Assembly: GCA_043808285.1 (NCBI GenBank)
Contig: JAZDFA010000012.1
Coordinates: 67,680 to 131,679 of the forward strand
Source of the DNA: an archaeon
GTDB taxonomy: Archaea > Nanobdellota > Nanobdellia > Pacearchaeales > DTIR01
Direction of reading: 5' to 3'
DNA: 64,000 bases
Shown here piece by piece: positions 14,368-38,314 of this stretch (its first letter is position 1; each line of letters starts with the position of its first letter). Below the pieces are notes generated by a model that saw only the letters and a list, made by a program, of their open reading frames with translations, did no database searches and was not told the DNA's origin. The position numbers and the translations under genes were made by a program.

Positions 14368-14397
14368 TTTTCTAGCTAAGATGCTAAACTAATAAAT

Positions 14398-14407
14398 ATT
14401 ATAAATA
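14398..14407 (+). promoter_or_regulatory. TATA box for giant gene 1
   Basis: ATTATAAATA about 25 nt upstream of the GTG at 14427 (leaderless-type spacing). Confidence 0.4.
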
Positions 14408-14426
14408 GGCATTCTTTAAAGATTAT

Positions 14427-17400
14427 GTGAAAAATAGAAACGTAATCAAGATAAAGTTTAAGGAAATTATACTTAAAGAACCAGAAATTTTTAGCGAGAC
14501 AGTTTTTCAGATTGCTACATTAATTATCTCTATTTTTGCATTCTCTTTTTTAGTTGGGTCTATTTCAATTGCGGCGAGCCCAGTGGTTAGTGCACTAGAA
14601 TCTTCTGTATGTTGTGAGAAAACAAAAGACAAGAATCTTTTCTGCCAAAATTCTATTGCTGCAAATTGCGATGATACTTTAGGCCATTCACAGACATTAT
14701 GCTCTTCAACTGACTACTGCAAATTAGGCTGTTGTATAGACACAACAGAAGGAACATGCGGAGAGAACACACCTAAGAAGGTTTGCGATTTAAGGAATGG
14801 AACATGGGATTTAAGCGCAAGCTGCAATATTGCACAATGCCAAAAAGGGTGTTGTATCTCAGGAGATAAGGCATCATTAACTACATTAGTAAGATGCAAG
14901 AAATTGGCAAGCTTTTATGGTTTAGAGACAGACTATAGAAGTGAGATAATTTCTGAGGCTACCTGTGTTAATATTGCACAGGCAGAAGACAAGGGGGCGT
15001 GCTTAATTAATACTGGTTTAGAGACAACATGCAAATTGACAACAAAGGTTCAATGTAATGGTATAACACACAATGCAAGTGCTTTCAATAAGGAATTTTT
15101 ATGCTCTGCGAAGGAATTAGGAACACCTTGCACAAGACAGGCATCCACAGGATGCATTGAAGGAAAGGACGAGGTTTATTGGTTTGATTCCTGCGGGAAT
15201 ACAGAGAATATTTATGATTCTAACAAAGACCGAAGCTGGAATAATGGAAAGATTCTTGAAAAGAGCAAGTCATGTGATTTAATCAAGGGGAATACTAGGA
15301 ATCCTCTTTGCGGAAATTGCAAATATTCTGAAGGTAGCATTTGCGGGAAAGCAAGAACGGGGATTGAGCCAAAGCCAGCTTATGGAGATTATATTTGCAG
15401 AAATGTTGACTGCGAGGATACTTTTAATGGAAATGATTACAAGCACGGAGAATCATGGTGTGTTTATGATGCGACAGTGGGGCAAGGAAAAGATTTAGTG
15501 GGAAGCAGGCATTGGAGACATCTTTGTGTAATGGGTGAAGAACAGGTTGAGCCGTGCGAGGATTATAGACAGTCCATATGCGTTGAAAATAAAGTAAAGA
15601 CAGATGAGGGAGATTTTAATGAGGCAGTATGTAAAATAAATGACTGGCGCTCATGCATTGATTATAATAACAAAGCAAATCCTCAGAGTCTATGCAGCAA
15701 TAACAAGGATTGCTATCCTTTGGCTGCATGGAAAATGAATTTATGTATGCCTCAAGTGCCTTCTGGATTTGAGATGAGAGACAGTGACAGTGCAAGCACG
15801 ATATGCGGCATGGCAACACAACAATGCACTGTTGTTTACACCAAGAAATTAAGTGGGTGGGAGTGCACTTTGAATTGCGAGTGCAAAGAACAATCGTGGG
15901 CAAACCAGATGAATAAATGGTGCACTTCTTTAGGTGATTGCGGTGGCAAATATAATCTTGCAGGGTCATATGAGAAAGGATATCAGATGTCTGGAGGACA
16001 AGCACCAAATGAGGACAGCAGTGGTTCAGATAAGGGTGCTGGCAGCGGCGGAGGAATGATGTCTTACTTACCTATGGCTGGAACTGCACTAGGCGCATAT
16101 ATGATGTTAAAAGGAGGTGCTGTTGTTGCAGCCGGAACTGTATTAGTTGCTGGAACAACAGTTACAAGCGGAGTAGTTGCTGTAACACAGGCAAGTGGGG
16201 TAGTTGTTTCTTTTACTGCGACTGCTGCTTCTCCTGTCACAATTACTGCGAGCGGAGCTGTACAGGGAGGAGTTAGTGCAAGTGGTGCAGTTAGTGCCGG
16301 CGGTGGAGGTGCGACTACTGGAAGCGGAGGTGCAGCTGCAGGAATAACTGGGTGGTTGAACGGCATGACAACAATGGGTCCTTTACTTGCTATAGCTGCA
16401 GTTGCTATAGCTGGATTTTTTATAGGAAAAATGATGGGATTAGATGATACTGCATCAGCAATAGCTGCAGGTGTCGGAGTTGCAACAGCAGTAACTTTGC
16501 AGGTATTGCATCAGATGGGCGTTCAAATGTTTACAAATTTGGCTTTTACAGGGCTATTTATTTGGGGGATGGTTGCAGCAATTATTATGATAATAATTTT
16601 CAAATTTATTTTAGGAGTAGGCAAGACAAAAAAAGAGGTAATCAGTTTCACATGTCTGCCATGGCAGCCGCCATCAGGTGGGGCAAACTGTGAAAAATGC
16701 AATACGCTTCCTATTGGTGGGGATATGAAACAGTGCAGCAAATACAGATGTGAGAGTTTAGGAGCAGCATGTTCATTGTTAAATGAGGGAACTGGAAATG
16801 AGACATGTGCATGGCTGAATAAGGACGATATAAATGCACCTACATTGAAGCCATGGAAAGATGTTCTTACTTCTGGGCATAAATACAGAGATGATGCTTG
16901 TAAGGAAGCAGGATGCTGGACTATATTAAGAGATATTGCAACAGACGGCTGCATTCAGCCATATACCTCGATAGCATTCGGAATTGAGACAAATGAACCC
17001 TCACAATGCAAGATTGATTATGCCTCTAAAGAGAAATTTGATGATATGGAATTTTATTTTGGAGAAAATCTTTATCTTTATAATCACAGCGTGCAGATGA
17101 GCATGCCTGCTCCAGAGCATATATATGAAATAAGCAAAATATTTGCTGAAGAGAATCCTGAAGAGGGAATAGTTCCTGTGCGAAATGGCGGGAACTACAC
17201 ATTATATCTAAGATGCAGGGATGCCAATGGAAATGCAAATGCCAAAGAATTTTCAGTCAGTTTTTGCGTCGACTCTGGCCCCGATTTAAACGCTCCTTTG
17301 ATAATGAGAACGAGCATTGAAAATGGTGCGCCAATAGGATACGGCACAAACTCAGTTCCAATTGATATATCCTTGAACGAGCCATCACAATGCAAATGGA

Positions 17401-18191
17401 GTAATTTAGACCAAGATTATGGGGATATGACTCAGAATTTTACATGCTCTGATTCAATTGAGCAGATGGAAGGAGACATGACTTACAAGTGCTCTGCTAA
17501 TTTGCTCGGAGTAAAGGATGCTACGACAAATATTTTCTATTTCAGATGCAAAGACCAGCCATGGCTTGCGGGAAAGAATGAATCTGGCAGGAATGATAAT
17601 AAGGAAAGTTATATTTTTAAGCTTGAAGGCACTAATCCCTTAAAGATAATTGGCAAGGGTCCTGAAGAGACAATATATTCTGGTGGTGAGAACACAGAAA
17701 TAATTCTTACAGTTGATACCTCTGAGGGTTATTCATATGGGGATTCTGTATGTTATTTTAGCAATACTGGTTATGAGAATATGCTGCAGTTTTTCACAAC
17801 AGGAGAGGCTCATCACGAGCAAACGCTTAATTTACCTTTAGGAGACCACACTTTTTACCTGTCATGCATGGATTTAGCAGGGAATGTTGACAAGACTACT
17901 ATAAGCTTTACTGCTGAGCTTGATAAGACACCCCCAGAAGTAATAAAAGCATATCAAGATGGAGGCATGTTAAAGATAATCACTGATGAGGAGAGTGATT
18001 GCAGATATGGAATAAAAGATTGCAATTTTGATTTTTTCTCTGCAACAGAAATGCCAGTTGCAGATTTAGGAGAGTATAATGCTGAATGGAGAACCGATGC
18101 CACCTATTATATAAAATGCATGGATAAGTTTGGCAACATTCCTTCAAATTCGGAATGCACTATAAAATTAAATGCATATAATGTAGAATAG
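14427..18191 (+). CDS. giant Cys-rich membrane protein, copy 1: N-terminal anchor, Cys-rich ectodomain, Gly/Ala/Val/Thr-rich hydrophobic core, four beta-sandwich-like C-terminal modules
   Basis: 1254 aa, GTG start. TM helix IATLIISIFAFSFLVG. Dozens of Cys (CCEKTKDK.., CQKGCC..). Central region GGMMSYLPMAG..FKFILGVGK. C-terminal modules with recurring EPSQCK..F/YYxxC(K/R)D..GN. Confidence 0.6.
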   Translation: MKNRNVIKIKFKEIILKEPEIFSETVFQIATLIISIFAFSFLVGSISIAASPVVSALESSVCCEKTKDKNLFCQNSIAANCDDTLGHSQTLCSSTDYCKLGCCIDTTEGTCGENTPKKVCDLRNGTWDLSASCNIAQCQKGCCISGDKASLTTLVRCKKLASFYGLETDYRSEIISEATCVNIAQAEDKGACLINTGLETTCKLTTKVQCNGITHNASAFNKEFLCSAKELGTPCTRQASTGCIEGKDEVYWFDSCGNTENIYDSNKDRSWNNGKILEKSKSCDLIKGNTRNPLCGNCKYSEGSICGKARTGIEPKPAYGDYICRNVDCEDTFNGNDYKHGESWCVYDATVGQGKDLVGSRHWRHLCVMGEEQVEPCEDYRQSICVENKVKTDEGDFNEAVCKINDWRSCIDYNNKANPQSLCSNNKDCYPLAAWKMNLCMPQVPSGFEMRDSDSASTICGMATQQCTVVYTKKLSGWECTLNCECKEQSWANQMNKWCTSLGDCGGKYNLAGSYEKGYQMSGGQAPNEDSSGSDKGAGSGGGMMSYLPMAGTALGAYMMLKGGAVVAAGTVLVAGTTVTSGVVAVTQASGVVVSFTATAASPVTITASGAVQGGVSASGAVSAGGGGATTGSGGAAAGITGWLNGMTTMGPLLAIAAVAIAGFFIGKMMGLDDTASAIAAGVGVATAVTLQVLHQMGVQMFTNLAFTGLFIWGMVAAIIMIIIFKFILGVGKTKKEVISFTCLPWQPPSGGANCEKCNTLPIGGDMKQCSKYRCESLGAACSLLNEGTGNETCAWLNKDDINAPTLKPWKDVLTSGHKYRDDACKEAGCWTILRDIATDGCIQPYTSIAFGIETNEPSQCKIDYASKEKFDDMEFYFGENLYLYNHSVQMSMPAPEHIYEISKIFAEENPEEGIVPVRNGGNYTLYLRCRDANGNANAKEFSVSFCVDSGPDLNAPLIMRTSIENGAPIGYGTNSVPIDISLNEPSQCKWSNLDQDYGDMTQNFTCSDSIEQMEGDMTYKCSANLLGVKDATTNIFYFRCKDQPWLAGKNESGRNDNKESYIFKLEGTNPLKIIGKGPEETIYSGGENTEIILTVDTSEGYSYGDSVCYFSNTGYENMLQFFTTGEAHHEQTLNLPLGDHTFYLSCMDLAGNVDKTTISFTAELDKTPPEVIKAYQDGGMLKIITDEESDCRYGIKDCNFDFFSATEMPVADLGEYNAEWRTDATYYIKCMDKFGNIPSNSECTIKLNAYNVE

Positions 18192-18256
18192 TGCATGTAA
18201 CGGCAGTAATTGACGGTTCATTAAGAATTATTTTTTGCAAATTTTTATTCAAAATA

Positions 18257-18265
18257 TTTATAAAT
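18257..18265 (+). promoter_or_regulatory. TATA box
   Basis: TTTATAAAT centred about 26 nt upstream of the ATG at 18287. Confidence 0.45.
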
Positions 18266-18286
18266 ACCTTCTTCTTTAGAAAAGCC

Positions 18287-19036
18287 ATGAGAGGGAACAA
18301 GGGCGGACAGGTTGCTTTATTTGTGATTGTTGCAATCGTATTGGTCGCTTCTATTCTTTTATTTTTTGCACTAAAACCAGAAGTTAACCCATTTGCCCAG
18401 GAACAAGAGCCATCAGCTTATATTGAAAAATGCATGAGGGATTCTGCCTCTAGCGCACTGGATGTATTAAGCTCACAGGGAGGATCATTAAGCCCAACAG
18501 GCTTTGCGTTATATGACAACAACAGGGTTTCTTATTTATGTTACACAAGCGATTATTATTCAAGATGCGTCAATCAAGAGCCAATGCTGAAATATTCTGT
18601 TGAATCTGAAATAACTGATTATATAATACCTAAAGTGCAGCAGTGCATAGCTAATTTAAAACAGCAATATGAAAAAAAGGGATATAAAGTTGAAATTGGC
18701 GTAATGAAGCTTTCAACAACTCTAGCTCCAAAGAAAGTAATTATAGACTTGGACATGCCTTTTACAATAATAAAGGAAGATTCCGAAAGATACGAGAAAT
18801 TCGAGGCAATTGTGCTTCATCCTATATACGACCATATAATGCTGTCTCAAGACATTGTAAATTCAGAAACTTCAGTTGGAGATTTCGATCAGCTCGGTTA
18901 TATGCTTTACCAATCAGAGACAAGCATAGACAAGAAGTCTCAAGGGGAGAACACTATATATATAATAAGAGACAGGAGTTCTGACAAGAGATTCTTGTTT
19001 GCAATAAGAAGCTATATCATGCCACCCGGATTCTAA
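18287..19036 (+). CDS. type IV pilin-like protein (class III signal peptide)
   Basis: ORF 18191..19036, start moved to MRGNKGGQVALFVIVAIVLVASILLFFAL. KGG|Q followed by a hydrophobic helix is a prepilin-peptidase-type signal. Confidence 0.55.
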   Translation: MRGNKGGQVALFVIVAIVLVASILLFFALKPEVNPFAQEQEPSAYIEKCMRDSASSALDVLSSQGGSLSPTGFALYDNNRVSYLCYTSDYYSRCVNQEPMLKYSVESEITDYIIPKVQQCIANLKQQYEKKGYKVEIGVMKLSTTLAPKKVIIDLDMPFTIIKEDSERYEKFEAIVLHPIYDHIMLSQDIVNSETSVGDFDQLGYMLYQSETSIDKKSQGENTIYIIRDRSSDKRFLFAIRSYIMPPGF

Positions 19037-19088
19037 GAGGTTTAAAATAAGTAAAAATGGATGAGCAGAAGGACGAAGGTTAAGTAAA

Positions 19089-22000
19089 ATGAATAACAAA
19101 AAAACGGCAAAAGAAAAGCCAGTATTACAGGCGTTCTTCTTAATGGCTAACATGATTATTTCGATATTTGCATTTTCTTTTTTGATTGCTGCTGTATCAG
19201 TTATATCAACACCTGTTGCTGCTGCAGCTACATCAACTGAATGCTGCGAGAAGGTAAAGGACAAGGATTTATTCTGCCAGAATACATTATCAACAAGCTG
19301 CGATACAAAATTTGCTCATGCTCCAACTTCATGCGACTCAACTTCATTTTGCAGATTAGGGTGCTGTTATGACGGCAAGGAAGGAACTTGCGCTGAAAGC
19401 ACCCCAAGAAAGGTTTGTGATTTAAGGGGTGGGACATGGGATTTGAGCGCAAGCTGCAATATCGCACAATGCCAAAAGGGGTGCTGTGTTCTTGGAGACC
19501 AGGCATCATTGACAACATTAGTAAGATGCAAGAAATTGGCAAGCTTTTATGGTTTAGAGACAGATTACCGGTCTGCTATTGTTTCTGAGCAGGCATGCGT
19601 TGATATTGCACAAGCAGAGGATAAAGGAGCATGCGTTATCACTGCAGGCGGAGTTGAAACAACTTGCAAGCTAACAACAAGAGTAGAATGCAAGAGCATG
19701 ACACACAATGAAACTGCTTTCAATAAAGGATTTTTATGTTCGGCAGAGAAGTTAGGAACACCTTGCACAAGACAGGCATCCACAGGATGCATTGAAGGAA
19801 AGGACGAGGTTTATTGGTTTGATTCCTGCGGGAATACTGAAAATATTTATGATGCTAACAAGGACAGGAGCTGGAACAATGGAAAGATATTAGACAAGGA
19901 AAAGTCATGCGATCCTATACAAGATAATGCAAAGGATGCAAATTGCGGCAATTGCGATTATTATATGGGAAGCATGTGCGGAAAGGCAAGGACAGGAGTT
20001 GAGCCAAGACCTGCTGAGGGGGATTACATTTGCAGGGATTTGAATTGTTATAATACTTACAATGGAAAAGATTACAAGCACGGAGAATCATGGTGTGTTT
20101 TTGATGGTGCTGTAGGATTAGGCAGAGATGCACCAGGCAGCAGGCATTGGAGACATCTTTGTGTGATGGGTGAGGAGAAAGTAGAGCCTTGTGATGATTA
20201 CAGGCAGGGGATTTGTGTTCAGGATAGTGTGGATATAGAAGGTCAGGGCAAATACACAGAGGCAATGTGCAGGGCAAATGGCTGGAAGATGTGCTTTGAT
20301 TATAATTCTAAATCTAATGCAGAAAAACAATGCAATGATAATAATGACTGCATGTGGATGCAAGCATGGAAATTAAAATTATGCGTGCCAAATTTCCCTC
20401 CAGGATTTAATATAAAGGCTGGAGGAGACCTTGCAGGTGGAGCAACTACTTTCTGTAGCATGGGTTCTTCATCATGTTCTGTAGCTTATCAGAAAACTTT
20501 AACGAAAGGTTGGCAGTGTGTTGGCAATTGCGAATGCAAGGAACAAGCATGGGTAAATACTATGGACAAATTGTGCACTTCTATGGGAGATTGTGGTGGA
20601 AAAGCTAATATTGCTGGAGCTTATACTAAAGATGGATATGAAATAAGCGGAACAGAGAATGTTCCAGATAAAAATGTAAGCAACAAAGATGATGGTTTTG
20701 GAGGTTTTGGTGGTTTATTGATGTCTGGGGGGATAGCTATAGGTGCTATTTGGATATTTAATAACATGAAGCTTATAACTACTTCTCAAGCTACTGCATT
20801 AAAAGCAGCTGAAGTTATTGGAGGCAAGACTGCTAGGATGACTAGCCTCAAAGGGGCGGAAGCAGGATATTCCCCAGGTAAGGGATTAACATTAAATCAG
20901 TGGTTGAGTATTAATGCTAAACAGGGAACCGGGTTTGCCAATATAGCTGTAAATGTCGCAGGAGCATATATGGTTTCTATGCTTGTTAATGGATTATTTG
21001 GTTTGAAAGGAGAAGCCGCAAACATGGTAACAATGGCAGGTGTAACTACTTCATTAGCAACTTCAGTTTATGGAAATATGATGGCCTCAAAAGTAGCTGC
21101 AGGAACTGCGCAGCCTTTCTTAGGTCTGGGTGGGGGAGCTTGGTTTGCCCCTCTTATTTGGGCTGCAGTAGTAATGTTAGTAGTAGCTTTAATTATGAAA
21201 ATGATGAAGATAGGTGCGACAAGAACGGAGAAAGTAACATTCACATGTTTGCCATGGCAGCCTCCAGTTGGCGGGGCTGATTGCCAGAAATGCAATAAGG
21301 AACCAATTGGTGGGGAGATGAAGCCATGCACTAAATATAGATGTGATAGTCTTGGGCAGGGTTGTTCATTATTAAATGAAGGTACTGGAAAAGAGACTTG
21401 CACTTGGATTAATAAGGATGACAGCACTGCGCCGGTAATAAAACCATTAAAGTCTGTGCTTACAAAAGACCATTCTTACAAAGAAATTAAGCCTTGCCCG
21501 CCAGGACCTGGTTGCTTCAAGATAGAAAAAGAGGGTTCTAAAGACGGCTGCATAAAATCATTTACCCCATTGCAATTTGGAATAGAAGCTAATGAGCCTG
21601 CACAATGCAAGCTAGACACAAATCACACTGGGAAGTTTGATGACATGCAGTTTTATTTTGGTGATAATCTTTACTTATATAATCATACTATGATGATGAG
21701 CCTGCCTTCACCTGCTTCTATAAATGCGTTAAGCAATGAAACAACAAGCCCCACATTAAAGAATGATGGGAAATATACAATGTATATAAGATGCAGGGAC
21801 GGAAATGGGAATTGGAACTTGGGGGAAATGGCAATGCAGTTCTGCGTTGACCCTGGCCCAGACACGACACCTCCAATGATAATGAGAACAAGCATAGAGA
21901 ACGGAGCACCAATAAGTTACAATGCAAAGAATGTTCCTTTGGATGTTTATCTGAATGAGCCATCAGCGTGCAAATGGAGCAGAACAGATCAGGATTATAA

Positions 22001-22784
22001 CAATATGAATAATACATTTATATGTGCTTCAAGTGTTGAGCAGATAGAAGGAGACATGACTTACAAGTGCAGCACAATATTAAGCAGCGTTAATGATAAG
22101 GTAACAAATACCTTCTATTTCAGATGCAAAGACCAACCATGGCTTGCAGGAGTTAATGAGAGTGACAGGAATATTAACAAAGAGAGTTATGTTTTCAAGC
22201 TTGAAGGCACTATTCCATTGAATATCACTAAGGTAGAACCAAATGGAACAGTTAAAGGAGGAGCAGAGCCAATCTCTGTGAAATTAACTGCAGAGACTGC
22301 AAATGGATATTCAAGCGGGGATGCAAAATGTTCTTTTGCAACAAATGGTTATGATGGGGCGATGGTAGAATTTTTTGATACTGGTAGTTACAAACATGAA
22401 CAGACTCTTGATTTGTATGCTGGAGACTACACTTTCTATGTGATGTGTAGAGATGATGCAGGAAATACTGACCAGAATATGACTAAATTCAAAGTAGAAT
22501 TGGATAAAACACCTCCCATAGCTGTAAGAGCTTATCAGGATGGGGGAATGCTAAAGATAGTAACTGATGAAGATTCAGAATGCAAGTATGGAATAAAGGA
22601 CTGCAACTTTGACTTTTTATCTGCTACAGACATGCCATTTGAAAATTCAACAGAGCATACTGCAGAATGGAGAACAGACATAACTTATTATATCAAGTGC
22701 AAAGACCAATATGGGAATATGCCAGTACCCTCTGCTTGTTCGATACAAGTAGATGCATATGATATACAGACGAATAGTGAGTAA
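19089..22784 (+). CDS. giant Cys-rich membrane protein, copy 2 (paralog of 14427..18191)
   Basis: 1231 aa. Collinear with copy 1 in both ectodomain parts (CCEKVKDKDLFCQN.., FTCLPWQPPVGGADCQKCN.., four C-terminal modules). The central hydrophobic region is unrelated in sequence. Confidence 0.6.
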   Translation: MNNKKTAKEKPVLQAFFLMANMIISIFAFSFLIAAVSVISTPVAAAATSTECCEKVKDKDLFCQNTLSTSCDTKFAHAPTSCDSTSFCRLGCCYDGKEGTCAESTPRKVCDLRGGTWDLSASCNIAQCQKGCCVLGDQASLTTLVRCKKLASFYGLETDYRSAIVSEQACVDIAQAEDKGACVITAGGVETTCKLTTRVECKSMTHNETAFNKGFLCSAEKLGTPCTRQASTGCIEGKDEVYWFDSCGNTENIYDANKDRSWNNGKILDKEKSCDPIQDNAKDANCGNCDYYMGSMCGKARTGVEPRPAEGDYICRDLNCYNTYNGKDYKHGESWCVFDGAVGLGRDAPGSRHWRHLCVMGEEKVEPCDDYRQGICVQDSVDIEGQGKYTEAMCRANGWKMCFDYNSKSNAEKQCNDNNDCMWMQAWKLKLCVPNFPPGFNIKAGGDLAGGATTFCSMGSSSCSVAYQKTLTKGWQCVGNCECKEQAWVNTMDKLCTSMGDCGGKANIAGAYTKDGYEISGTENVPDKNVSNKDDGFGGFGGLLMSGGIAIGAIWIFNNMKLITTSQATALKAAEVIGGKTARMTSLKGAEAGYSPGKGLTLNQWLSINAKQGTGFANIAVNVAGAYMVSMLVNGLFGLKGEAANMVTMAGVTTSLATSVYGNMMASKVAAGTAQPFLGLGGGAWFAPLIWAAVVMLVVALIMKMMKIGATRTEKVTFTCLPWQPPVGGADCQKCNKEPIGGEMKPCTKYRCDSLGQGCSLLNEGTGKETCTWINKDDSTAPVIKPLKSVLTKDHSYKEIKPCPPGPGCFKIEKEGSKDGCIKSFTPLQFGIEANEPAQCKLDTNHTGKFDDMQFYFGDNLYLYNHTMMMSLPSPASINALSNETTSPTLKNDGKYTMYIRCRDGNGNWNLGEMAMQFCVDPGPDTTPPMIMRTSIENGAPISYNAKNVPLDVYLNEPSACKWSRTDQDYNNMNNTFICASSVEQIEGDMTYKCSTILSSVNDKVTNTFYFRCKDQPWLAGVNESDRNINKESYVFKLEGTIPLNITKVEPNGTVKGGAEPISVKLTAETANGYSSGDAKCSFATNGYDGAMVEFFDTGSYKHEQTLDLYAGDYTFYVMCRDDAGNTDQNMTKFKVELDKTPPIAVRAYQDGGMLKIVTDEDSECKYGIKDCNFDFLSATDMPFENSTEHTAEWRTDITYYIKCKDQYGNMPVPSACSIQVDAYDIQTNSE

Positions 22785-22821: not shown

Positions 22822-23442
22822 CTAACGGTGGTCTCTACCATATTCCATTCGCCATGTTGTAAAATCAATTGGTTGGATATTTGTTCCATCTTTGTTCATT
22901 CTAAACCACTTAGCATGACTTAAATCTTTTGTATATACACTTATACCTCTTCCATAATCTATCCTCAGGGTATCTGTAAAAATAGGACCTATTTCAAATT
23001 CAGGAGTATATGTAATTCTTTTAATATCCCTGGCATTTCCATCATTGTCAATTTTTCCTACAAATAATTCAGTTTGTTTATTTTTGCCTTCTCCAACATA
23101 TGCAGTAAAGGCAACATTTTCTTTATAGATATCATCATCAATTCTATTTTCCCAGAGTTGTTTAGCTTCAGATTTTTCGATTAGATTATTTGGATTGTCT
23201 TTTTCTTGAGCATATGTAACTCCAGTCAACCCCATCAAAGATGCACCTAGCATTATTGCAAGAGCTCCTCTCTTCATAGCTTTGAATGGACCGGGCCTTA
23301 TTGTACCTTGTGCCCTATTATTGTCATAAGAATTACTGCAAGGGTAACTTGAGGAGCCTCTTCTTGAAATTTCATTGCCGTATCTTCCAACTTTTATTTT
23401 GGTCGGTTCTCCTTTCAAATTACTCTCAAGATTATTTGCCAT
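22822..23442 (-). CDS. hypothetical membrane-anchored or secreted protein
   Basis: 206 aa. Hydrophobic helix MKRGALAIMLGASLMGLTGVTYA at residues 56-78. The consensus promoter 30 nt upstream of 23442 favours the long form; alternative start at 23277. Confidence 0.4.
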   Translation of the reverse strand: MANNLESNLKGEPTKIKVGRYGNEISRRGSSSYPCSNSYDNNRAQGTIRPGPFKAMKRGALAIMLGASLMGLTGVTYAQEKDNPNNLIEKSEAKQLWENRIDDDIYKENVAFTAYVGEGKNKQTELFVGKIDNDGNARDIKRITYTPEFEIGPIFTDTLRIDYGRGISVYTKDLSHAKWFRMNKDGTNIQPIDFTTWRMEYGRDHR

Positions 23443-23470
23443 TTTTTGTTACTACTATATGGTTACTTAT

Positions 23471-23490: not shown

Positions 23491-23499
23491 AACTTTCGA

Positions 23500-25966: not shown

Positions 25967-25967
25967 C

Positions 25968-26096: not shown

Positions 26097-26122
26097 TTTA
26101 TCTGTTATTCTTAAATGGTAAC

Positions 26123-32182: not shown

Positions 32183-32722
32183 ATGAAAAGAGGGTTTTTA
32201 TCTTTAAAAAAGGCTGAAACAATGGGTATGCCTTTCCAGATGATTTTTTCATTGTTCTTAATTGCAGTATTCTTTGTTGTTGCTTTCTTTTCAATAATGA
32301 ACTTCCTGAGCGTGCAGAATTGCGCCCAAGTGGGATTGTTTCAAAGAGAATTACAGGAAAAGATAGATTCAATATGGAACGCCCAGTCAGCAGAAAATGT
32401 ATTCGAGGGAAAACTTCCAGGCTCAGTTGAATATGTATGCTTTCTAAATTTCACAAGACCCAAAACATTAACAGGATTGGATAGTGAAGGAAGGGATATT
32501 GCAAACAAGGTATATAATGATTTAAGCGTCTTTTACAAGTTTAAGAAGGCGAATCTTTTCCTATATCCTACAAAGGGTGCTTGCGATATGTCTTACAAGC
32601 TTCTTAAGCACATCGATGCAAGCAGTACTTCAAATCCTTATTGCATAAAGAATACCGGAAAGATAAGCATAAGCTTATACAAGGGATTTGATGATGTTTA
32701 TGTAAAAGTAAGGCAGCAGTAA
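32183..32722 (+). CDS. type IV pilin-like protein (class III signal peptide)
   Basis: MKRGFLSLKKA|ETMGMPFQMIFSLFLIAVFFVVAFF. Basic residues, Ala, then a hydrophobic helix. Confidence 0.5.
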   Translation: MKRGFLSLKKAETMGMPFQMIFSLFLIAVFFVVAFFSIMNFLSVQNCAQVGLFQRELQEKIDSIWNAQSAENVFEGKLPGSVEYVCFLNFTRPKTLTGLDSEGRDIANKVYNDLSVFYKFKKANLFLYPTKGACDMSYKLLKHIDASSTSNPYCIKNTGKISISLYKGFDDVYVKVRQQ

Positions 32723-32728
32723 AATCAT

Positions 32729-32868
32729 AAAAACCTCTGTTTTACTGGGGGTTTTCACGAAAAGCAAAGCTTTTCGAGTCCCCGAAAAACAAGAAGGTTT
32801 TTCTTGGTTAGGATGCAAGGAAATTCGAAAGAATTTCCGGCACAGAAAATCCTAGAGGATTTTCTTGT
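32729..32868 (-). repeat. modular hairpin repeat locus R6 (reverse, lacks the TGTCA terminal block)
   Basis: CGAAAAGC/GCTTTTCG, GAAAAAC/GTTTTTC, GGTTAGGATGC (reverse complement of GCATCCTAACC), GGAAATTC/GAATTTCC, AGAAAATCC/GGATTTTCT. Confidence 0.8.
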
Positions 32869-32885
32869 GATTCAAAATTAAAAAA

Positions 32886-33884
32886 ATGAACTTCAAAAAA
32901 AAAGATTTAAAATTTATGGACATTGGAAGAAAGAAAGCACAAATGCAGTTTAATTGGATTTTTTCTATTGTAGTGGGGGCAGTTATAATCTTTCTTGCAT
33001 TATTTTTTGCAAGTCGTTCTATTAACATGCAGCAATACAAGTATGATTCAGAGATAGCTGAAAAACTTTCAGTGCTGCTTGATCCTTTGGAGAGTGGCAT
33101 GGGGAGTGCATCAATTGATGTGATAAAAATGCCTGCAGACACAAGAATAAGCATGAAATGCAAATATGAGGGAATAGGCAGGCAGGAGCTAAGAATTGCC
33201 ACAAAGAATAGTGTTGGAAGTGAGTGGCAGGAATTTGGGGCTATACAGAGCATATACAACAAGTATGTATTTTCAAGAGACTTGGAAGAAGGCAAAGAGC
33301 TTTACATCTTTTCAAAGCAGTTTAAGATGCCATTTGATGTTGCAAATTTGATATACCTAACGGCAGGAAATTATTGTTTCATTTCTCCTCCAGACAGCCT
33401 CTCTTATGAGCTAAAGGACTTGAACGCAACCAATATGAAGGTTACTAATAGGAAGCAGGATTGCAAGAAGGGGAGCATAAGTGTGTGCTTCAATAACCCT
33501 TCATGCGATGTAGTTGTTAATGGATTATGCTATGGATACGGCTGCAATAGTCTATATGATTACGGGTATGTGCAGCAGGGAAATGAAAAGTCTTATTTCT
33601 TGGGAGATGCATTGCTTTATGGTGCGATATTTTCAAAGCCAGATTTTTACAATTGCACTGTGAAGAGGCTATTGAACCGGATAAGCATGCTTTCGAAGCT
33701 TTATGCAGAGAAGACAAAGCTTTTAGATTCAAGAGGGTGTATGACTGGAGAACTCTCAAAAAAACTGATAGATTTAAGCTATGAGGCATCAGGCTTGATA
33801 GCATTATCAAATATAATGCCGTTAAATGATAAATCAATTGAGGTGGAATATGAGAATGAGGCACTTATATGCAGGGCGTGGTAA
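32886..33884 (+). CDS. type IV pilin-like protein (class III signal peptide), 332 aa
   Basis: GRKKA|QMQFNWIFSIVVGAVIIFLALFFA. Confidence 0.5.
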   Translation: MNFKKKDLKFMDIGRKKAQMQFNWIFSIVVGAVIIFLALFFASRSINMQQYKYDSEIAEKLSVLLDPLESGMGSASIDVIKMPADTRISMKCKYEGIGRQELRIATKNSVGSEWQEFGAIQSIYNKYVFSRDLEEGKELYIFSKQFKMPFDVANLIYLTAGNYCFISPPDSLSYELKDLNATNMKVTNRKQDCKKGSISVCFNNPSCDVVVNGLCYGYGCNSLYDYGYVQQGNEKSYFLGDALLYGAIFSKPDFYNCTVKRLLNRISMLSKLYAEKTKLLDSRGCMTGELSKKLIDLSYEASGLIALSNIMPLNDKSIEVEYENEALICRAW

Positions 33885-34338
33885 GGCCCAATTAAAGATA
33901 CAGGAAACAGCTTTTATGCTGCTAGGTCTAGCAATGCTTTTTGCATTAATACTGATAATCTATGCAAATATGCAGGTTAAGCAATTATATTCTGAAAAGA
34001 ATCAACTGAAGGCAGAGAGAGCGATTAATTTGCTGGGCAAACTAGCGGCAATGCCTGAGCTGTCTTGTATAATCGGGAATTGCATAGATATGGATAAGGC
34101 ATTAGCAATCAGGAATGTTTCAGGCTATGAGAATCTTTGGAAGGGGTTAAGTTCAATAAAGATAGTTACAATATACCCCAACCAGTCAAGCATTACAATA
34201 TATGACAAAGGAAAGAAAGACATAACATATTCATCTTACGTCCCATTATGCAGGACTGCATACAAAGACGGATATGTATGGCAGGACTGTGATGTTGCAA
34301 AGCTGTTAGTTTCAGTTGAAGAGGTGAAACCAAAATGA
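33850..34338 (+). CDS. type IV pilin-like protein (class III signal peptide)
   Basis: ORF 33826..34338, start moved to MRMRHLYAGRGKA|QLKIQETAFMLLGLAMLFALILII. GAGGTGG lies 4 nt upstream of the ATG at 33850. Confidence 0.5.
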   Translation: MRMRHLYAGRGKAQLKIQETAFMLLGLAMLFALILIIYANMQVKQLYSEKNQLKAERAINLLGKLAAMPELSCIIGNCIDMDKALAIRNVSGYENLWKGLSSIKIVTIYPNQSSITIYDKGKKDITYSSYVPLCRTAYKDGYVWQDCDVAKLLVSVEEVKPK

Positions 34339-34856
34339 AAATGACGAGAAAAGCCCAGGAAGAGATATTGGGGTTTGTACTTATAATCTTAGTAGTAGGA
34401 ATAATCTCATTGGTTTTCTTAGGGTTAGCACTTCAAAAACCCCCCAAAACAAACCAGGACAAGCAGGTTGAAAATTTAGTTAATTCAATGCTTGCTTATA
34501 CAACTAATTGTGCATTGTATGTGCCGCAGTATGAAACAGTCTCGGATTTGATAAAGAGCTGTTATGCAAAGGACTATTGCAGTGATGGCAGAGATACATG
34601 CACAGAGTTAAAGAGCGTAATGGCCAGCATGATACAGACTTCAATAGGCAGCTTGACTGTTGACAGGCCTGTAAAGTCTTATGAGTTTAATATAAGCTAT
34701 TCAGAAAAACAGAGTGGCGGGATGACTTCAAGAAAACCAGACGCTTCAATACTATATTTAAGGAATGGAGTATCTAGCGGGACAAGCATAGGCTCTCAGC
34801 AGTTTTTGCCATTAGATGAAGGAAATATAGCAATCAGCCTAAAGCTTTGGTATTAG
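34335..34856 (+). CDS. type IV pilin-like protein (class III signal peptide)
   Basis: MKMTRKA|QEEILGFVLIILVVGIISLVFLGLAL. ATGA overlap with the upstream gene. Confidence 0.5.
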   Translation: MKMTRKAQEEILGFVLIILVVGIISLVFLGLALQKPPKTNQDKQVENLVNSMLAYTTNCALYVPQYETVSDLIKSCYAKDYCSDGRDTCTELKSVMASMIQTSIGSLTVDRPVKSYEFNISYSEKQSGGMTSRKPDASILYLRNGVSSGTSIGSQQFLPLDEGNIAISLKLWY

Positions 34857-35228
34857 CTATTGAAGGTGGAGAGTAAGCTGGATTTTATCAAGATTTATTA
34901 TTGGTTTGAGCTTTTGTTTTTTTCCTTTTAATTCTGGAACAAGCCTTACAAGACCAAAATTTCTTAAAAGTTCAACATCTTTTCTTACTGACTTAAAGTC
35001 TCTACCCAGCATTTTTGCAAGAGAATAAATAGAACTGGGGTTATTGTTTTTCAGAGTAAATAGCATTCTTGCCTTTTCATTGCTAAGAAGTTGCCTTAGA
35101 GCCATTATATCTGTGAAGTCCAAGCCAGCATAGCTTTTCCCATCTGCCTTAAACCTTCTAAACAATGCACTAAATGCTCCATGCTTCAATCTTATATCTA
35201 TGAAACCAATTCTTTCTTTTTCTACCAT
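34857..35228 (-). CDS. winged-helix DNA-binding protein (ArsR/MarR-like)
   Basis: 123 aa. SIYSLAKMLGRDFKSVRKDVELLRNFGLVRL is a typical HTH-wing segment. Confidence 0.5.
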   Translation of the reverse strand: MVEKERIGFIDIRLKHGAFSALFRRFKADGKSYAGLDFTDIMALRQLLSNEKARMLFTLKNNNPSSIYSLAKMLGRDFKSVRKDVELLRNFGLVRLVPELKGKKQKLKPIINLDKIQLTLHLQ

Positions 35229-35659: not shown

Positions 35660-38314
35660 ATGAAATTTAACTTTAAAAAGGTAGCGTCAGTATTAGCCAG
35701 CGCAGCAATGCTTGGTTCCACAATCGGAATGGCAGCTGCAGCTTCTATGTACCCAGACCCTTTCATAAAGGGAGGTGTTGCCAATGTAGCAATAGTTGTA
35801 GGCGCAAGCGCCGCAACAATTGATAACATAGCAGCAGTTGATGTTGGTGCAAATTTGCAGGCAGAGCTTGCAAAACAAACTGCAACAACTAGTTCAATCG
35901 GTGCAACAGGAGTTGGCGGTGATTCTGTCAACCTTGCTTCTACAAGCCAAAGGCTTTTCTACGGTAGCGCAATGAATGTTGCAAGAACTGGTATTTCTAA
36001 ATCAGAAATGCCTACTCTTTTAGCAGACGGCACTATAGTAGATGATGCAGGAACAGAATACAGCTTCACGCAAACCATAACACCAGGAAACAACACTGTG
36101 GCTTACTCCACAAGCGGAGGCGACTTGGAAGACCCAGCACTTCTAGTGCAGGTCGGAACAGTAGCAGATGCTTACTTGTATCAATTGGATCTTTCTTTCA
36201 ACAAGAATATCAATATATCAAGCTCTGACGTACAGGGCAACAATATAAAGATACTTGGAAAGGACTTTACAATTGGCTCTGGCTCAAACTCTGGAACACC
36301 TGTATTGTACTTGTATGGTGCAGGAACAGAGAAGACAGTCAGTGAAGGCGAGACAGCAAACCTCGAAGTAGGTGGAAAGACCTATGCATTAGAGGTTAAG
36401 AGCGTCGAGCAAACAGGAGGAGTGAATTACGTGTCTGTATCAGTAGATGGTGGTAGTATAAGAAGAATTACCGAAGGTAGCTCTTCAAAAGTTGGCGACA
36501 TAGAGATATATGCCAAGTCGATACATTACCTAGCAAAAGAGGCTCAAACTTCTTATGCAGATTTAAACATTGGTAGTACCAAGATTAAATTCGCGCAAGG
36601 TACAACTGTAAAGTCTGGAACAGATGAAACATCTATCCAAGGCACTAAGGCATACTTAACGTCAACAGGTGCTAACGGCTTATCCAAGTTATCTATAAAG
36701 GTAGCTATGGCAAAGTCCGCATCAGACCATCTTGGTATCGGAACTACGTTTGAAGACCCAATTTTCGGAGGACTTCAAGTGAAATTTGCAGATGTCGCTC
36801 CAGCATTGGATTCCGACATGAGAGATTCTGTAGTTATCAACACTGATAACAACAGAAATGCAAAGACAACTTTTACACCTTACTTGGGATCAAGCGAGGG
36901 AGCAAAGACTGTCTATTTTGGTTACGACCAAGACACTTCTGAAAGCACAATTACCACAAGACTCGCAGATTCTTCCAACAAAACCCTCAATGTACTTGAA
37001 GGTGCACTTGTTGGCGATGCTGAGTATATGGTTGTTAACGCAGGAGACTACGGTAGGATATTGAAAGTAACTGAACTACCAACAGGAGATTTAGAAACAA
37101 CTTCTAAGATCCAGTTGGAAGATGCTCTTACAGGAAAGACCCTCTTTGATGGAGGCGGATTGACTGTAGGAACAGATGGTAATGCCAGCACAAACATTGA
37201 TGGCAACACCTATTACTTCAGCGTCGTAAATAGTACGACATCTTACTTGAAGATCACCTGGGGTACGAATGCAGCTGAAGGAGTCGCTGGTACTCAAACA
37301 ACTTTATTCCCGAGAATAAAGTTGGCTAAAGGAGGATGGTTAGCATTCTTGAAACCTACAACTATTACCTACGGATTAACCTACTCTCTGCCAGGTCTAG
37401 AAACCTTAGCAGATTACGAGGCAGGTTTAACAATATCCGCTCAGACAGGTGCAGTTAGTAACGAATCAGGAAGCAAGAAATACGGAAATGTCAATTACTC
37501 AATTATATCAGGAGCAACAAATAACTTGACTGGTATAATTGGAGGAATAGACGTTAACGGAAATGATGCCCAAACTCTTATAGCAGGAACAGACTGTATC
37601 TTCAACTCTACTTCAGCAAATGGAGCAGCAGTTCTCTTCTTAGAAGAGAAGAAGATAACAGAAACCAACAATGCAAATAACGGCGACGCAATCTGTGTCA
37701 ACTTAGACGTGAGCGGAAGCACAACACCTGTAGAGGTGAGCGTTTCCACACCTGTAATGACAGGTACAAACTCCGCCTTGCAATCTCTTACAACTGACTC
37801 AAATGTCAGAGAGGCGGTTACAAGATACGGTACTTTCGTCGAATATGACTCAACAGATAACGATGCGATTACTATCAAATACCCAGATGAGCAGATGTAT
37901 GCAGACATACTCGTGACTCAGACAGGTGTAGAAGTAGCCGCTGGAGGATCGGGAGGAAGCGTAGCTTCACTTGGTTCTATTGCTGTTATGGATTCCGAAA
38001 TTGCTACTGTCAGTTCTAAGAACTTGATAGTACTTGGAGGAAGTTGTATAAACACAGTTGCTGCTAAAATGCTAGGAAGTGATTCAGCCATTTGTGGTGC
38101 AGACTTTACAACCGCGGCAGGCATTAGCTCAGGCCAATTCCTTATCAAGGTATTGGACTCCCCTTACACAACGGGTAAGGTAGCTATGTTAGTCGCAGGT
38201 TATGAAGGAGCAGACACAAGAAAAGCTGCAACTTACTTAGTAAGCATGAAGCCATCAACTATAGTTGGTACCGACCTTAAGAAGCAAACAGCAACCTACG
38301 AAGACGTAGTGTAA
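35660..38314 (+). CDS. S-layer protein
   Basis: 884 aa. Signal peptide, then YPDPFIKGGVANVAIVVGASAATIDNIAAVDV. C-terminal NLIVLGGSCINTVAAKML..VAMLVAGYEGADTRKAATYL. Both ends match the archaeal S-layer domain pattern. Thr/Ser/Gly-rich, visibly higher GC than neighbours. Confidence 0.8.
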   Translation: MKFNFKKVASVLASAAMLGSTIGMAAAASMYPDPFIKGGVANVAIVVGASAATIDNIAAVDVGANLQAELAKQTATTSSIGATGVGGDSVNLASTSQRLFYGSAMNVARTGISKSEMPTLLADGTIVDDAGTEYSFTQTITPGNNTVAYSTSGGDLEDPALLVQVGTVADAYLYQLDLSFNKNINISSSDVQGNNIKILGKDFTIGSGSNSGTPVLYLYGAGTEKTVSEGETANLEVGGKTYALEVKSVEQTGGVNYVSVSVDGGSIRRITEGSSSKVGDIEIYAKSIHYLAKEAQTSYADLNIGSTKIKFAQGTTVKSGTDETSIQGTKAYLTSTGANGLSKLSIKVAMAKSASDHLGIGTTFEDPIFGGLQVKFADVAPALDSDMRDSVVINTDNNRNAKTTFTPYLGSSEGAKTVYFGYDQDTSESTITTRLADSSNKTLNVLEGALVGDAEYMVVNAGDYGRILKVTELPTGDLETTSKIQLEDALTGKTLFDGGGLTVGTDGNASTNIDGNTYYFSVVNSTTSYLKITWGTNAAEGVAGTQTTLFPRIKLAKGGWLAFLKPTTITYGLTYSLPGLETLADYEAGLTISAQTGAVSNESGSKKYGNVNYSIISGATNNLTGIIGGIDVNGNDAQTLIAGTDCIFNSTSANGAAVLFLEEKKITETNNANNGDAICVNLDVSGSTTPVEVSVSTPVMTGTNSALQSLTTDSNVREAVTRYGTFVEYDSTDNDAITIKYPDEQMYADILVTQTGVEVAAGGSGGSVASLGSIAVMDSEIATVSSKNLIVLGGSCINTVAAKMLGSDSAICGADFTTAAGISSGQFLIKVLDSPYTTGKVAMLVAGYEGADTRKAATYLVSMKPSTIVGTDLKKQTATYEDVV

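What the first reader, a model, noticed from the sequence alone, without database searches (positions are those of the whole stretch)
14427..22784. Tandem pair of giant Cys-rich membrane proteins bracketing a pilin-like gene
Two collinear paralogs of 1254 and 1231 aa are separated only by a gene with a class III (prepilin-type) signal peptide (18287-19036). Each giant protein has four parts. The first is an N-terminal anchor helix. The second is a roughly 500-aa ectodomain packed with Cys (CC, CxC and CxxC spacings). The third is a roughly 200-aa Gly/Ala/Val/Thr-rich strongly hydrophobic core with several potential membrane spans. The fourth starts after the conserved FTCLPWQPP.GGA.C.KCN and comprises four beta-sandwich-like modules. 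I recognise no family. The size, disulfide-type Cys density, membrane-embedded core and pilin linkage suggest a surface apparatus. In a DPANN-type episymbiont this could be a host-attachment, pilus-tip or membrane-interaction machine. That function is hypothesis only.
Basis: partly seen in the sequence, partly recalled or inferred. Interest (0 to 1): 0.75.

Follow-up and report, generated by a model that had tools for sequence, protein, structure and literature searches.

The report
Conserved DPANN giant surface-protein and pilin-like module
Two giant cysteine-rich membrane proteins and a small pilin-like partner form a gene module found in nearly every related locus examined from the tiny Pacearchaeota/Woesearchaeota archaea; its main domain matches no known structure, so it is probably an undescribed cell-surface apparatus whose function is still unknown.

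Summary
A (14427-18191, 1254 aa) and B (19089-22784, 1231 aa) are 53% identical and carry 68 Cys each. M (18287-19036) has a type-IV-pilin-type N-terminus.

The unit is not "two giants bracketing a pilin". It is a two-gene module, small protein S followed by giant G, usually present twice. It sits between PCNA and a cluster of four pilin-like genes plus the S-layer gene. S was found in 83 of 84 loci. At least 598 hits in species-representative genomes and 1,463 clusters at 50% identity were found; every named relative is Pacearchaeota, Woesearchaeota or Nanoarchaeota.

The 455-aa Cys-rich head is modelled confidently (pLDDT 88.6) but matches nothing in PDB, BFVD, Pfam or NCBIfam. The C-terminal half is a 7-Cys knot plus four Ig-like sandwiches. 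Only about 90 aa of the "hydrophobic core" is conserved (a helical hairpin plus one strong transmembrane helix); the rest is variable linker.

Many genomes split G into a secreted head and an anchored C-half with its own signal peptide. The ectodomains evolve almost as slowly as PCNA and primase, which argues against a strain-specific or rapidly evolving host-specific adhesin.

Best reading: a conserved envelope spike or pillar complex. Function and C-domain topology remain unproven.

The parts
14427..18191 (+). Giant A (G1-type ortholog), 1254 aa, GTG start. Signal/anchor about residues 25-57, Cys-rich head about 58-510, variable G/A/V/T linker plus membrane helices 511-735, Cys knot plus four Ig-like modules 736-1254. 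It has no S gene of its own upstream.
14394..14409 (+). TATA-like element (AATATTATAAATAGG) about 25 nt upstream of A's GTG. The same AATATTTATAAAT motif precedes M here and S1 and S2 in L001. This is an inferred promoter in an AT-rich genome, so the evidence is weak.
18287..19036 (+). Small partner S (here called M), 249 aa. Class-III (type-IV-pilin-like) N-terminus MRGNKGGQVALFVIVAIVLVAS, four invariant Cys, C-terminal PPGF. It is the partner of the downstream giant B.
19089..22784 (+). Giant B (G2-type ortholog), 1231 aa.
19128..19229 (+). B residues 14-47: K-rich N-terminus followed by a conserved hydrophobic signal or anchor (family motif I..LI.S.FAFS...VSA).
19230..20603 (+). B residues 48-505: Cys-rich head. 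It has 45 Cys, starts with three or four beta-hairpin-plus-helix CC modules, and carries the motifs DSCGN.ENIY, GESWC and GDCGG. The AF2 model has pLDDT 88.6 and no structural match.
20604..20936 (+). B residues 506-616: variable, poorly predicted linker that cannot be aligned across the family.
20937..21095 (+). B residues 617-669: conserved helical hairpin TMa-turn-TMb (family motif GLQWAA.AY..G..LG.LFGL, acidic turn, ALS..LA.G.F). Its hydrophobicity is marginal.
21147..21203 (+). B residues 687-705: TMc, the one robustly predicted transmembrane helix. It is followed by K/R-rich residues.
21225..21563 (+). B residues 713-825: conserved V.F.C.PWQAP.GG.DCEKCN...PCSEYRC.SLGQ.C...E.C knot with 7 invariant Cys.
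21564..22766 (+). B residues 826-1226: four Ig-like beta-sandwich modules. Each has one invariant Cys on an early strand and one on a late strand (motif C.D..GN). Big_13 is matched at threshold.
32183..34856 (+). Four genes (179, 332, 170 and 173 aa) with [KR][GA]Q plus a hydrophobic N-terminus. In most relatives they lie directly downstream of the S-G modules; here they are displaced by about 9.4 kb.
34857..35228 (-). HVO_A0114-type HTH protein, part of the same conserved super-locus.
35660..38314 (+). S-layer-like protein, 884 aa (PF05124, E = 6.7e-9), at the end of the conserved super-locus.

Best explanation
A and B are two copies of G, the large subunit of a lineage-specific archaeal cell-surface complex. 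M is its small subunit S.

Shown:
- G starts with a K-rich, conserved hydrophobic signal.
- It carries a roughly 455-aa domain with about 10% Cys and no match in PDB or BFVD.
- It has one strong internal transmembrane helix preceded by a conserved helical hairpin.
- It ends in a 7-Cys knot plus four Ig-like sandwiches.
- S has a canonical K[RK]GQ-hydrophobic class-III signal and sits immediately 5' of G.
- The modules lie next to four further pilin-like genes and the S-layer gene.

Inferred:
- G is exported by Sec, so its head is outside the cell and stiffened by disulfides.
- It is held in the membrane by the central helices.
- The C-terminal Ig array is probably also outside (about 65% likely). 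G would then be a centrally anchored protein with two ectodomains.
- After prepilin-peptidase processing, the hydrophobic helix of S stays in the membrane and docks on G's conserved membrane helices.
- Two diverged G paralogs work together as a hetero-oligomer.
- The assembly is a fixed spike or pillar of the envelope. It organises or crosses the S-layer and makes conserved contacts with the cell's own envelope or with a conserved ligand on a partner cell. It is not a variable adhesin.
For: - Paralogy and Cys pattern.
- Module layout: S-G, S-G-S-G or G-S-G in 83 of 84 loci, with S-G gaps of 5 nt or less (or overlap) in 5 of 9 called pairs.
- Super-locus: primase(-), PCNA, S G S G, four pilin-like genes, HTH(-), S-layer.
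- S N-terminal consensus K-[RK]-G-Q-[VI]-T-[IL]-F-I-I; 102 of 118 fit the FlaFind pattern.
- Confident AF2 models, with no match for the head in PDB or BFVD and only Ig/FnIII arrays for the whole protein.
- Natural fission into a secreted head and a C-half with its own signal peptide.
- G1 and G2 clades are retained across genomes.
- Ectodomain identity is 35-49%, against PCNA 51-55%, primase 43-50%, S-layer 30-38% and pilin-like proteins 28-38%.
- The family is large: at least 598 genomic hits and 1,463 clusters at 50% identity.
- It is absent from IMG/VR and PHROGs.
- For an external C-domain: Big_13, DUF4625 and Y_Y_Y-type similarity; one early-strand and one late-strand invariant Cys in each of the four sandwiches; Cys counts that are odd in both the head and the C-domain in most members.
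Against: - No experimental or annotation evidence of function exists anywhere; every homolog is called hypothetical.
- Topology is unresolved. Only TMc is robustly hydrophobic, and TMa and TMb are marginal. The C-terminal flank of TMc carries more K+R than the N-terminal flank, 2.8 against 0.75. One or three spans would put the C-domain in the cytoplasm.
- Sequon statistics do not discriminate.
- No pilus ATPase, platform or prepilin peptidase gene was seen among the window proteins scanned; not every window ORF was scanned.
- S has no Pfam pilin hit.
- A has no S partner of its own in this genome.
- S-G binding, G1-G2 pairing and disulfide formation are inferences.
Confidence: 0.5

Rival explanations
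1. G is a type-I receptor-like protein. The head is outside, one (or three) membrane spans follow, and the Cys knot plus Ig array sit in the cytoplasm with Cys/His ligands binding zinc. In this reading G couples an external binding event to an internal partner.
For: Only TMc is a robust transmembrane helix, and 1 or 3 spans give a cytoplasmic C-terminus. K+R are enriched after TMc, as in a stop-transfer anchor. The knot contains CxxC and Cx4C spacings, and the invariant H866 (B numbering) and nearly invariant His residues lie near Cys in the sandwiches. Sequons are depleted in the head and linker but neutral in the C-domain.
Against: The third sandwich has only two invariant Cys, on opposed strands, which cannot form a metal site. 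The same early-strand/late-strand pair recurs in all four modules, as for Ig-type disulfides. The weak homology is to extracytoplasmic Ig families. In split forms the head has no anchor and needs an external partner. Cys at 4.5% is far above the cytoplasmic proteins here that are not Fe-S enzymes.
Confidence: 0.22
2. G is the tip adhesin, or host-attachment protein, of a type-IV-pilus-like filament built from S and the four neighbouring pilin-like proteins. It would be functionally analogous to PilY1/PilC with minor pilins.
For: S has a class-III signal. Four pilin-like genes of GspH-K-like sizes (179, 332, 170 and 173 aa) are conserved next to the modules. The organism is an episymbiont-type DPANN archaeon: the primase is a fused PriS/PriL and the closest relatives are Pacearchaeota.
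Against: G has a strong internal transmembrane helix, which would hold it in the cell's own membrane. No assembly ATPase or platform gene was found among the proteins scanned in the window or in the gene tables of L001-L004. G lacks vWA or beta-propeller domains. The ectodomains evolve as slowly as replication proteins, unlike typical host-range adhesins.
Confidence: 0.13
3. G is a two-part, Env-like spike. The head would be the receptor-binding subunit and the C-half the anchored subunit. The conserved hydrophobic hairpin would insert into a partner cell's membrane to fuse membranes or open a channel for lipid or nucleotide acquisition.
For: G splits naturally at the head/C-half boundary. Cys counts are odd in both halves, which fits one inter-subunit disulfide. 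The conserved Gly/Ala-rich helical hairpin has marginal hydrophobicity, resembling a fusion loop more than an anchor. The module is universal in lineages that must obtain lipids and nucleotides from hosts (Castelle 2021, PMC8204110).
Against: There is no structural similarity to any fusogen or pore former in PDB or BFVD. No heptad-repeat or coiled-coil region was predicted. The parity evidence is equally explained by G-G dimer disulfides. This reading is entirely inferential.
Confidence: 0.08
4. The genes are cargo of a virus or mobile element, for example a viral glycoprotein.
For: The proteins are large, Cys-rich and membrane-anchored. A ParE/MazE pair sits between the two modules in L001.
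Against: Chromosomal synteny next to PCNA and primase is conserved across dozens of genomes. No relatives were found in IMG/VR. No PHROG hits were found. GC content is close to that of the flanks.
Confidence: 0.02

Closest known systems
Archaeal class-III-signal (type-IV-pilin-like) surface proteins, including non-filament users such as the Sulfolobus bindosome sugar-binding proteins (from my own knowledge of the literature)
   Same: S has a short basic N-terminus, a K[RK]GQ cleavage-type motif and a hydrophobic helix of about 20 residues. Like bindosome proteins, it carries a sizeable globular domain and is encoded with a membrane partner.
   Different: The S globular domain (about 210 aa, four invariant Cys, C-terminal PPGF) matches no Pfam, NCBIfam or PDB family. 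No ABC transporter or assembly ATPase is linked to the module. Processing by a prepilin peptidase is untested.
PilY1/PilC plus minor-pilin tip complexes of bacterial type IV pili, and the GspH-I-J-K set of type II secretion
   Same: A protein of more than 1000 aa is encoded with a set of small pilin-like proteins, including one larger protein of about 330 aa.
   Different: G has an internal membrane anchor, no vWA or beta-propeller domain, and an unrelated Cys-rich head. No homology was detected.
Two-component archaeal S-layers with a membrane-anchored stalk (SlaA/SlaB of Sulfolobales)
   Same: G is a Sec-exported protein rich in beta-sandwiches, anchored in the membrane and encoded near the S-layer gene.
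   Different: G is anchored centrally rather than C-terminally. It has a 455-aa disulfide-type head, a pilin-like partner and two paralogs. It shows no sequence or fold similarity to S-layer families PF05123 or PF05124.
Bacterial Ig-like domain arrays (Pfam Big_13, DUF4625, Y_Y_Y) and eukaryotic Ig/FnIII ectodomains
   Same: The four C-terminal modules are beta-sandwiches. Foldseek E-values reach 6e-14 against PTP-delta, titin and GhpA arrays. B reaches the Big_13 cut-off, 27.5 against 27.0 bits.
   Different: This is generic fold similarity only, at 8-12% identity. Each module here carries an invariant Cys pair. These families say nothing about function.
Module 98 of Castelle et al. 2021 (PMC8204110): 51 protein families specific to Pacearchaeota and Woesearchaeota
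   Same: It has the same taxonomic restriction and the same description: unknown function, many families membrane-bound or extracellular.
   Different: These are anonymous catalogue entries. I could not retrieve the table to confirm that G or S is listed. The paper singles out a different giant family, fam00969, with a lytic transglycosylase domain.

Membership tests
Archaeal type IV pilin-like / class III signal peptide proteins (for S/M) | A basic N-terminus, a [KRDE][GA][ALIFQMVED][ILMVTAS]x3 motif (the FlaFind pattern), and then a hydrophobic helix | tested here: met
   102 of 118 S orthologs fit the pattern; the consensus is K-[RK]-G-Q-[VI]-T-[IL]-F-I-I. The window's M has the variant KGGQVAL, with G instead of K/R at position -2, so it fits only loosely.
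Archaeal type IV pilin-like / class III signal peptide proteins (for S/M) | A match to a curated pilin model (Pfam Pilin_N PF07790 or a Class_IIIsignal model) | tested here: not met
   One of 17 members hit Pilin_N at E = 0.13; no member reached a curated cut-off. NCBIfam gave nothing.
Archaeal type IV pilin-like / class III signal peptide proteins (for S/M) | Cleavage by a PibD/FlaK/EppA prepilin peptidase, and assembly by a PilB/FlaI-type ATPase with a PilC/FlaJ platform | not testable with these tools
   No such genes were found among the window proteins scanned. The rest of the genome is not available.
Bacterial Ig-like domain Big_13 (for the G C-terminal modules) | Pfam gathering score of 27.0 bits | tested here: inconclusive
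   B scores 27.5 bits (E = 4.6e-6), just above the cut-off. A scores 17.4 bits, below it. Some homologs carry precomputed PF19077 hits. The fold-level Ig/FnIII similarity is clear.
PilY1/PilC-type pilus tip adhesins | An N-terminal vWA-like domain and a C-terminal beta-propeller, with no membrane span | tested here: not met
   No such domains were found by Pfam or Foldseek. A strong internal transmembrane helix is present.
Class II fusogens / fusexins (HAP2, Fsx1) and other viral fusion glycoproteins | The three-domain beta-rich fusogen fold, detectable by structure comparison | tested here: not met
   Foldseek of the head gave a best E of 1.1 against PDB (TM below 0.15) and 0.068 against BFVD. 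The whole model hit only Ig arrays. The knot region was not searched on its own.
Archaeal S-layer proteins (PF05123/PF05124) | A match to the S-layer N-terminal or outer-domain models | tested here: not met
   A and B gave no hit. The neighbouring 884-aa protein does match PF05124, at E = 6.7e-9.
Putative secretion system associated with arCOG01314 (Makarova et al. 2015, PMC5898192) | DUF4350 anchor protein, MoxR ATPase, vWA proteins, and DUF1616 (PF07760) membrane Ig proteins in one neighbourhood | tested here: not met
   None of these families was hit by G, S or the neighbours scanned. Not every window ORF was scanned.

The most novel reading that the evidence does not exclude
The S-G module is a machine specific to, and near-universal in, Pacearchaeota and Woesearchaeota, and it mediates their dependence on other cells. 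In this reading it is a two-part spike. The head would be disulfide-linked to an anchored C-half, and the conserved Gly/Ala-rich helical hairpin would engage a partner membrane, opening contact sites or channels for lipid or nucleotide acquisition. It would be built on a protein fold with no known relative.
Probability: 0.1. Interest if true: 0.9.

Novelty: categorically new. Interest (0 to 1): 0.7.

Why it matters
Pacearchaeota and Woesearchaeota are among the most abundant uncultured archaea in groundwater and sediments. They lack lipid and nucleotide synthesis, and nobody knows how they attach to or feed from other cells. This module is one of very few large, slowly evolving, lineage-wide surface components in these genomes, and it is physically linked to their pilin-like and S-layer genes. 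That makes it a concrete and testable candidate for the core of their envelope or contact apparatus. It could be targeted by cryo-ET, by antibodies used to find hosts, and by metaproteomics. The head is also a confidently modelled 455-aa domain with about 10% Cys and no match in the PDB or BFVD, so it may be a new fold. The recurrent fission into head and anchor genes is a natural experiment on how the parts assemble.

Tried and rejected
- Pfam, NCBIfam and PHROGs scans of A, M and B gave only weak Ig-like hits. PDB sequence and profile searches were empty.
- Foldseek of the whole B model was swamped by generic Ig arrays, so the head was modelled and searched alone. That search found nothing in PDB or BFVD.
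- The IMG/VR scan found no relatives.
- The Cys-rich neighbour p689 was tested as a possible relative of the head and rejected (hhalign probability 4.7%).
- Sequons were tried as a topology marker. The head and linker are depleted and the C-domain is neutral. Conserved sequons looked promising but occur at the chance rate among conserved Asn columns, so I dropped the argument.
- Cys content as a marker of cell compartment gave only a modest contrast, 1.7% against 1.2%.
- Charge and hydrophobicity analyses of topology conflict with the domain-type arguments. I left this unresolved rather than forcing a call.
- The literature search found no description of the family. The Makarova arCOG01314 "secretion system" is a different gene set.
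- A first MAFFT run for the tree timed out and was redone with hmmalign.
- A 102-sequence alignment was too large for structure prediction.


Full report
**Observation.** The region holds three co-directional genes. A is at 14427-18191 (1254 aa, GTG start), M at 18287-19036 (249 aa) and B at 19089-22784 (1231 aa). A and B align over their full length at 53% identity. Each has 68 Cys at matching positions. Cys makes up 9.9% of the N-terminal domain, 0% of the centre and 4.5% of the C-terminal half, against 1.2-1.7% pooled for the other proteins of the window. A's GTG start is confirmed because it aligns with the ATG of its ortholog in a close relative. The window is from a DPANN archaeon. Its neighbours are PCNA, seryl-tRNA synthetase and a fused PriS/PriL primase, and the closest genomic relative is a Candidatus Pacearchaeota MAG (69% identity).

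**Anatomy.** AlphaFold2 with a 57-sequence alignment gives a confident model of B residues 32-1231 (mean pLDDT 79.4).
- The parts in order are: an N-terminal hydrophobic signal, a Cys-rich domain (pLDDT about 85), a poorly predicted stretch, three helices (B 617-637, 642-669 and 687-705), then a beta-strand carrying the invariant V.F.C.PWQ.P motif, a knot with 7 invariant Cys, and four beta-sandwich modules.
- Modelled alone, the head (B 45-525) reaches pLDDT 88.6. It starts with three or four repeated beta-hairpin-plus-helix units built on GCC...C...C motifs.
- Family alignments show 41 conserved Cys in the head and 21 in the C-terminal half. Invariant non-Cys motifs include DSCGN.ENIY, GESWC and GDCGG.
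- Only about 90 residues of the centre are conserved. These are a helix-turn-helix (GLQWAA.AY..G..LG.LFGL, an acidic turn, ALS..LA.G.F) and a final helix followed by YK.E or GKTK.
- The G/A/V/T-rich run that makes A's centre look like a 200-aa membrane core is lineage-specific linker. With a Hessa-type scale, only the last helix is robustly membrane-spanning and the hairpin is marginal.

**No known family.** Pfam gives only weak Ig-like hits (Big_13, Y_Y_Y, DUF4625); B just reaches the Big_13 cut-off. NCBIfam and PHROGs give nothing. PDB sequence searches give nothing. Foldseek of the whole model finds only generic Ig/FnIII arrays such as PTP-delta, titin and GhpA. Foldseek of the head alone finds nothing, with best E = 1.1 and TM below 0.15 in PDB and best E = 0.068 in BFVD. 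AlphaFold DB could not be searched.

**The real unit is an S-then-G module.**
- In four long contigs from related archaea, a protein of about 250 aa homologous to M lies immediately upstream of each giant. The pair occurs twice, just downstream of PCNA.
- I mapped HMMs of both families onto 83 fetched loci plus the window. S is present in 83 of 84 loci, always directly 5' of a G on the same strand. The layouts seen are S-G-S-G (commonest), G-S-G (as in the window), a single S-G, or three S-G pairs.
- S-G gaps are 5 nt or less, or overlapping, in five of nine called pairs.
- In the window, the S gene that precedes A's ortholog in the close relative L001 is missing, together with a tRNA-synthetase gene. 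A TATA-like AATATTATAAAT element now sits about 25 nt upstream of A. The same element precedes M here and S1 and S2 in L001.

**S is pilin-like by its signal.** Across 133 S ORFs the N-terminal consensus is K-[RK]-G-Q-[VI]-T-[IL]-F-I-I. The commonest forms are KRGQ (48) and KKGQ (24), and 102 of 118 fit the FlaFind class-III pattern. M has the rare KGGQ form. The globular part has four invariant Cys and a C-terminal PPGF, and it matches no family.

**A larger conserved surface locus.** The usual order is: p689(-), primase(-), PCNA(+), S G S G, four small proteins with [KR][GA]Q-hydrophobic N-termini, an HVO_A0114-type HTH(-), and an S-layer-like gene. In the window the last three elements are at 32183-34856, 34857-35228 and 35660-38314. 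About 9.4 kb of housekeeping genes separates them from B.

**Distribution.** The 79 loci kept (the best 80 matches) are all named Pacearchaeota, Woesearchaeota, Nanoarchaeota, Nanoarchaeia or simply "archaeon". An exhaustive phmmer of the head against 1.84 billion representatives found 1,463 clusters at E of 1e-3 or better and 773 at 1e-30 or better. Lengths fall in two groups, about 500-800 aa and about 1100-1500 aa. No relatives are in IMG/VR. Every source name is "hypothetical protein". Castelle et al. 2021 describe a set of 51 unknown families specific to these two lineages, many of them membrane-bound or extracellular. G and S probably belong to that set, but I could not retrieve the table.

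**Gene fission.** In many genomes one giant, usually the second, is split. The N-half ends 13-60 aa after GDCGG and has no C-terminal anchor. The C-half begins with its own K-rich signal carrying the same I..L..S.FAF...VS[AG][DE] motif as the giant's N-terminus. It continues with a variable linker, the hairpin, the last helix and the knot plus Ig array. This shows that the linker is exported, and that head and C-half can work as separate polypeptides, so they probably bind each other.

**Evolution.** A rough NJ tree separates G1 and G2 clades in S-G-S-G genomes, which indicates an old duplication with positional orthology. A and B group with the G1 and G2 of L001 respectively, and those two pairs are sisters. 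Between the window and six distant genomes, PCNA is 51-55% identical and primase 43-50%. By comparison, the G head is 35-44%, knot plus first sandwich 39-49%, S 35-38%, the pilin-like proteins 28-38% and the S-layer protein 30-38%. The centre does not align. The ectodomains are therefore under constraint close to that of the replication proteins, which argues against a fast-evolving, host-specific adhesin.

**Topology is unresolved.**
- For a cytoplasmic C-domain: only one robust helix, or three if the hairpin inserts, and more K+R after the last helix than before it, 2.8 against 0.75.
- For an external C-domain: similarity to extracytoplasmic Ig families; one invariant Cys on an early strand and one on a late strand in each of the four sandwiches, including a module with only those two Cys; 4.5% Cys; and the need to retain the anchorless head in split forms.
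- Cys counts are odd in the C-domain in 57 of 61 fused and 21 of 21 split proteins. They are odd in the head in 45 of 61 fused and 38 of 45 split proteins. This fits one head-to-C-domain disulfide, but it fits G-G dimer disulfides equally well.
- Sequon analyses proved uninformative.
- I put about 65% on an external C-domain.

**Interpretation.** The best-supported reading is a conserved, lineage-specific envelope complex. G would be a Sec-exported spike or pillar, anchored centrally in the membrane and stiffened by disulfides. S would be its pilin-like partner, and the complex would be linked genomically and probably physically to the pilin-like set and the S-layer. Which ligand it contacts and what it does are not shown. 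The rivals are a receptor with a cytoplasmic Ig/zinc domain, a pilus-tip adhesin, an Env-like fusion or channel spike, and mobile-element cargo. They are ranked in the Rival explanations section with the evidence for and against each.

**Novelty.** The building blocks of the C-terminal half and the S signal are familiar. The head fold, the S globular domain, the central-anchor architecture and the S-G module have no described counterpart that I could find. I rate it categorically new, with two caveats: AlphaFold DB was not searched, and function is unknown.

Noticed in passing
window 32183-38314: A conserved cluster of four small proteins (179, 332, 170 and 173 aa) with [KR][GA]Q plus a hydrophobic N-terminus, then a divergent HVO_A0114-type HTH gene and an 884-aa S-layer-like gene (PF05124). 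In most relatives it follows the giants directly. The four small proteins and the S-layer protein have no NCBIfam match (the HTH gene was not scanned there), and the four small proteins have no Pfam match either.
   Followed up: partly
window 22822-32127: About 9.4 kb of unrelated genes (a 206-aa protein, a metallo-beta-lactamase-fold protein, MetRS, a radical SAM protein, an APH-like kinase, a histidine phosphatase and a 441-aa protein that I did not scan) lies between giant B and the pilin-like cluster. These two are adjacent in L002, L003, L006-L008 and others, so this looks like an insertion or rearrangement in this lineage.
   Followed up: partly
window 14367-14427, compared with L001 2588-4601: The close relative L001 has a tRNA-synt_1b gene and an S gene between SerRS and the first giant. 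The window has only 59 bp there, with the S-type TATA-like element now directly upstream of A. This is an apparent deletion that leaves A without its own small partner.
   Followed up: partly
window 5255-9642 (- strand): Two large proteins with N-terminal hydrophobic signals lie upstream of the primase: 689 aa with 28 Cys and no family, and 765 aa with a CARDB hit and an excess of N-x-S/T sequons (16 against 9 expected). The 689-aa protein is conserved at this position in 19 loci and is unrelated to the giant head (hhalign probability 4.7%).
   Followed up: partly
window 9548-11636 (- strand): A single 427-aa primase carries both PriS and PriL domains. It overlaps by about 20 nt a Cas4/PD-(D/E)XK-type nuclease gene. 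The primase-PCNA divergent pair is syntenic with the S-G modules in about 28 loci.
   Followed up: partly
L001 8467-8978: A ParE-like toxin and MazE-like antitoxin pair is inserted on the opposite strand between the two S-G modules of the close relative. It is absent from the window.
   Followed up: no
L011, L030, L041, L042, L008, L013, L014, L078, L050, L053 (coordinates): The giant is repeatedly split into a head gene and a C-half gene, with stop and start codons a few nt apart. The C-half has its own signal peptide resembling the giant's N-terminus. Fused proteins keep a weakly hydrophobic segment at the equivalent place (for example B 539-557), possibly a relic of that second signal.
   Followed up: partly
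window 14427-22784 and family alignments A1/A2: N-x-S/T sequons are strongly depleted in the Cys-rich head (0.39 times the shuffle expectation) and in the central region (0.23 times), but not in the C-terminal half (1.11 times). No explanation was established.
   Followed up: partly
window 50493-56129: A run of co-directional genes whose first product begins with a proteasome-alpha-like sequence (YDRAATMFSPDGHLLQVEYA). It looks like the archaeal proteasome/exosome superoperon. I judged this from the sequence and my own knowledge and did not run it against Pfam.
   Followed up: no
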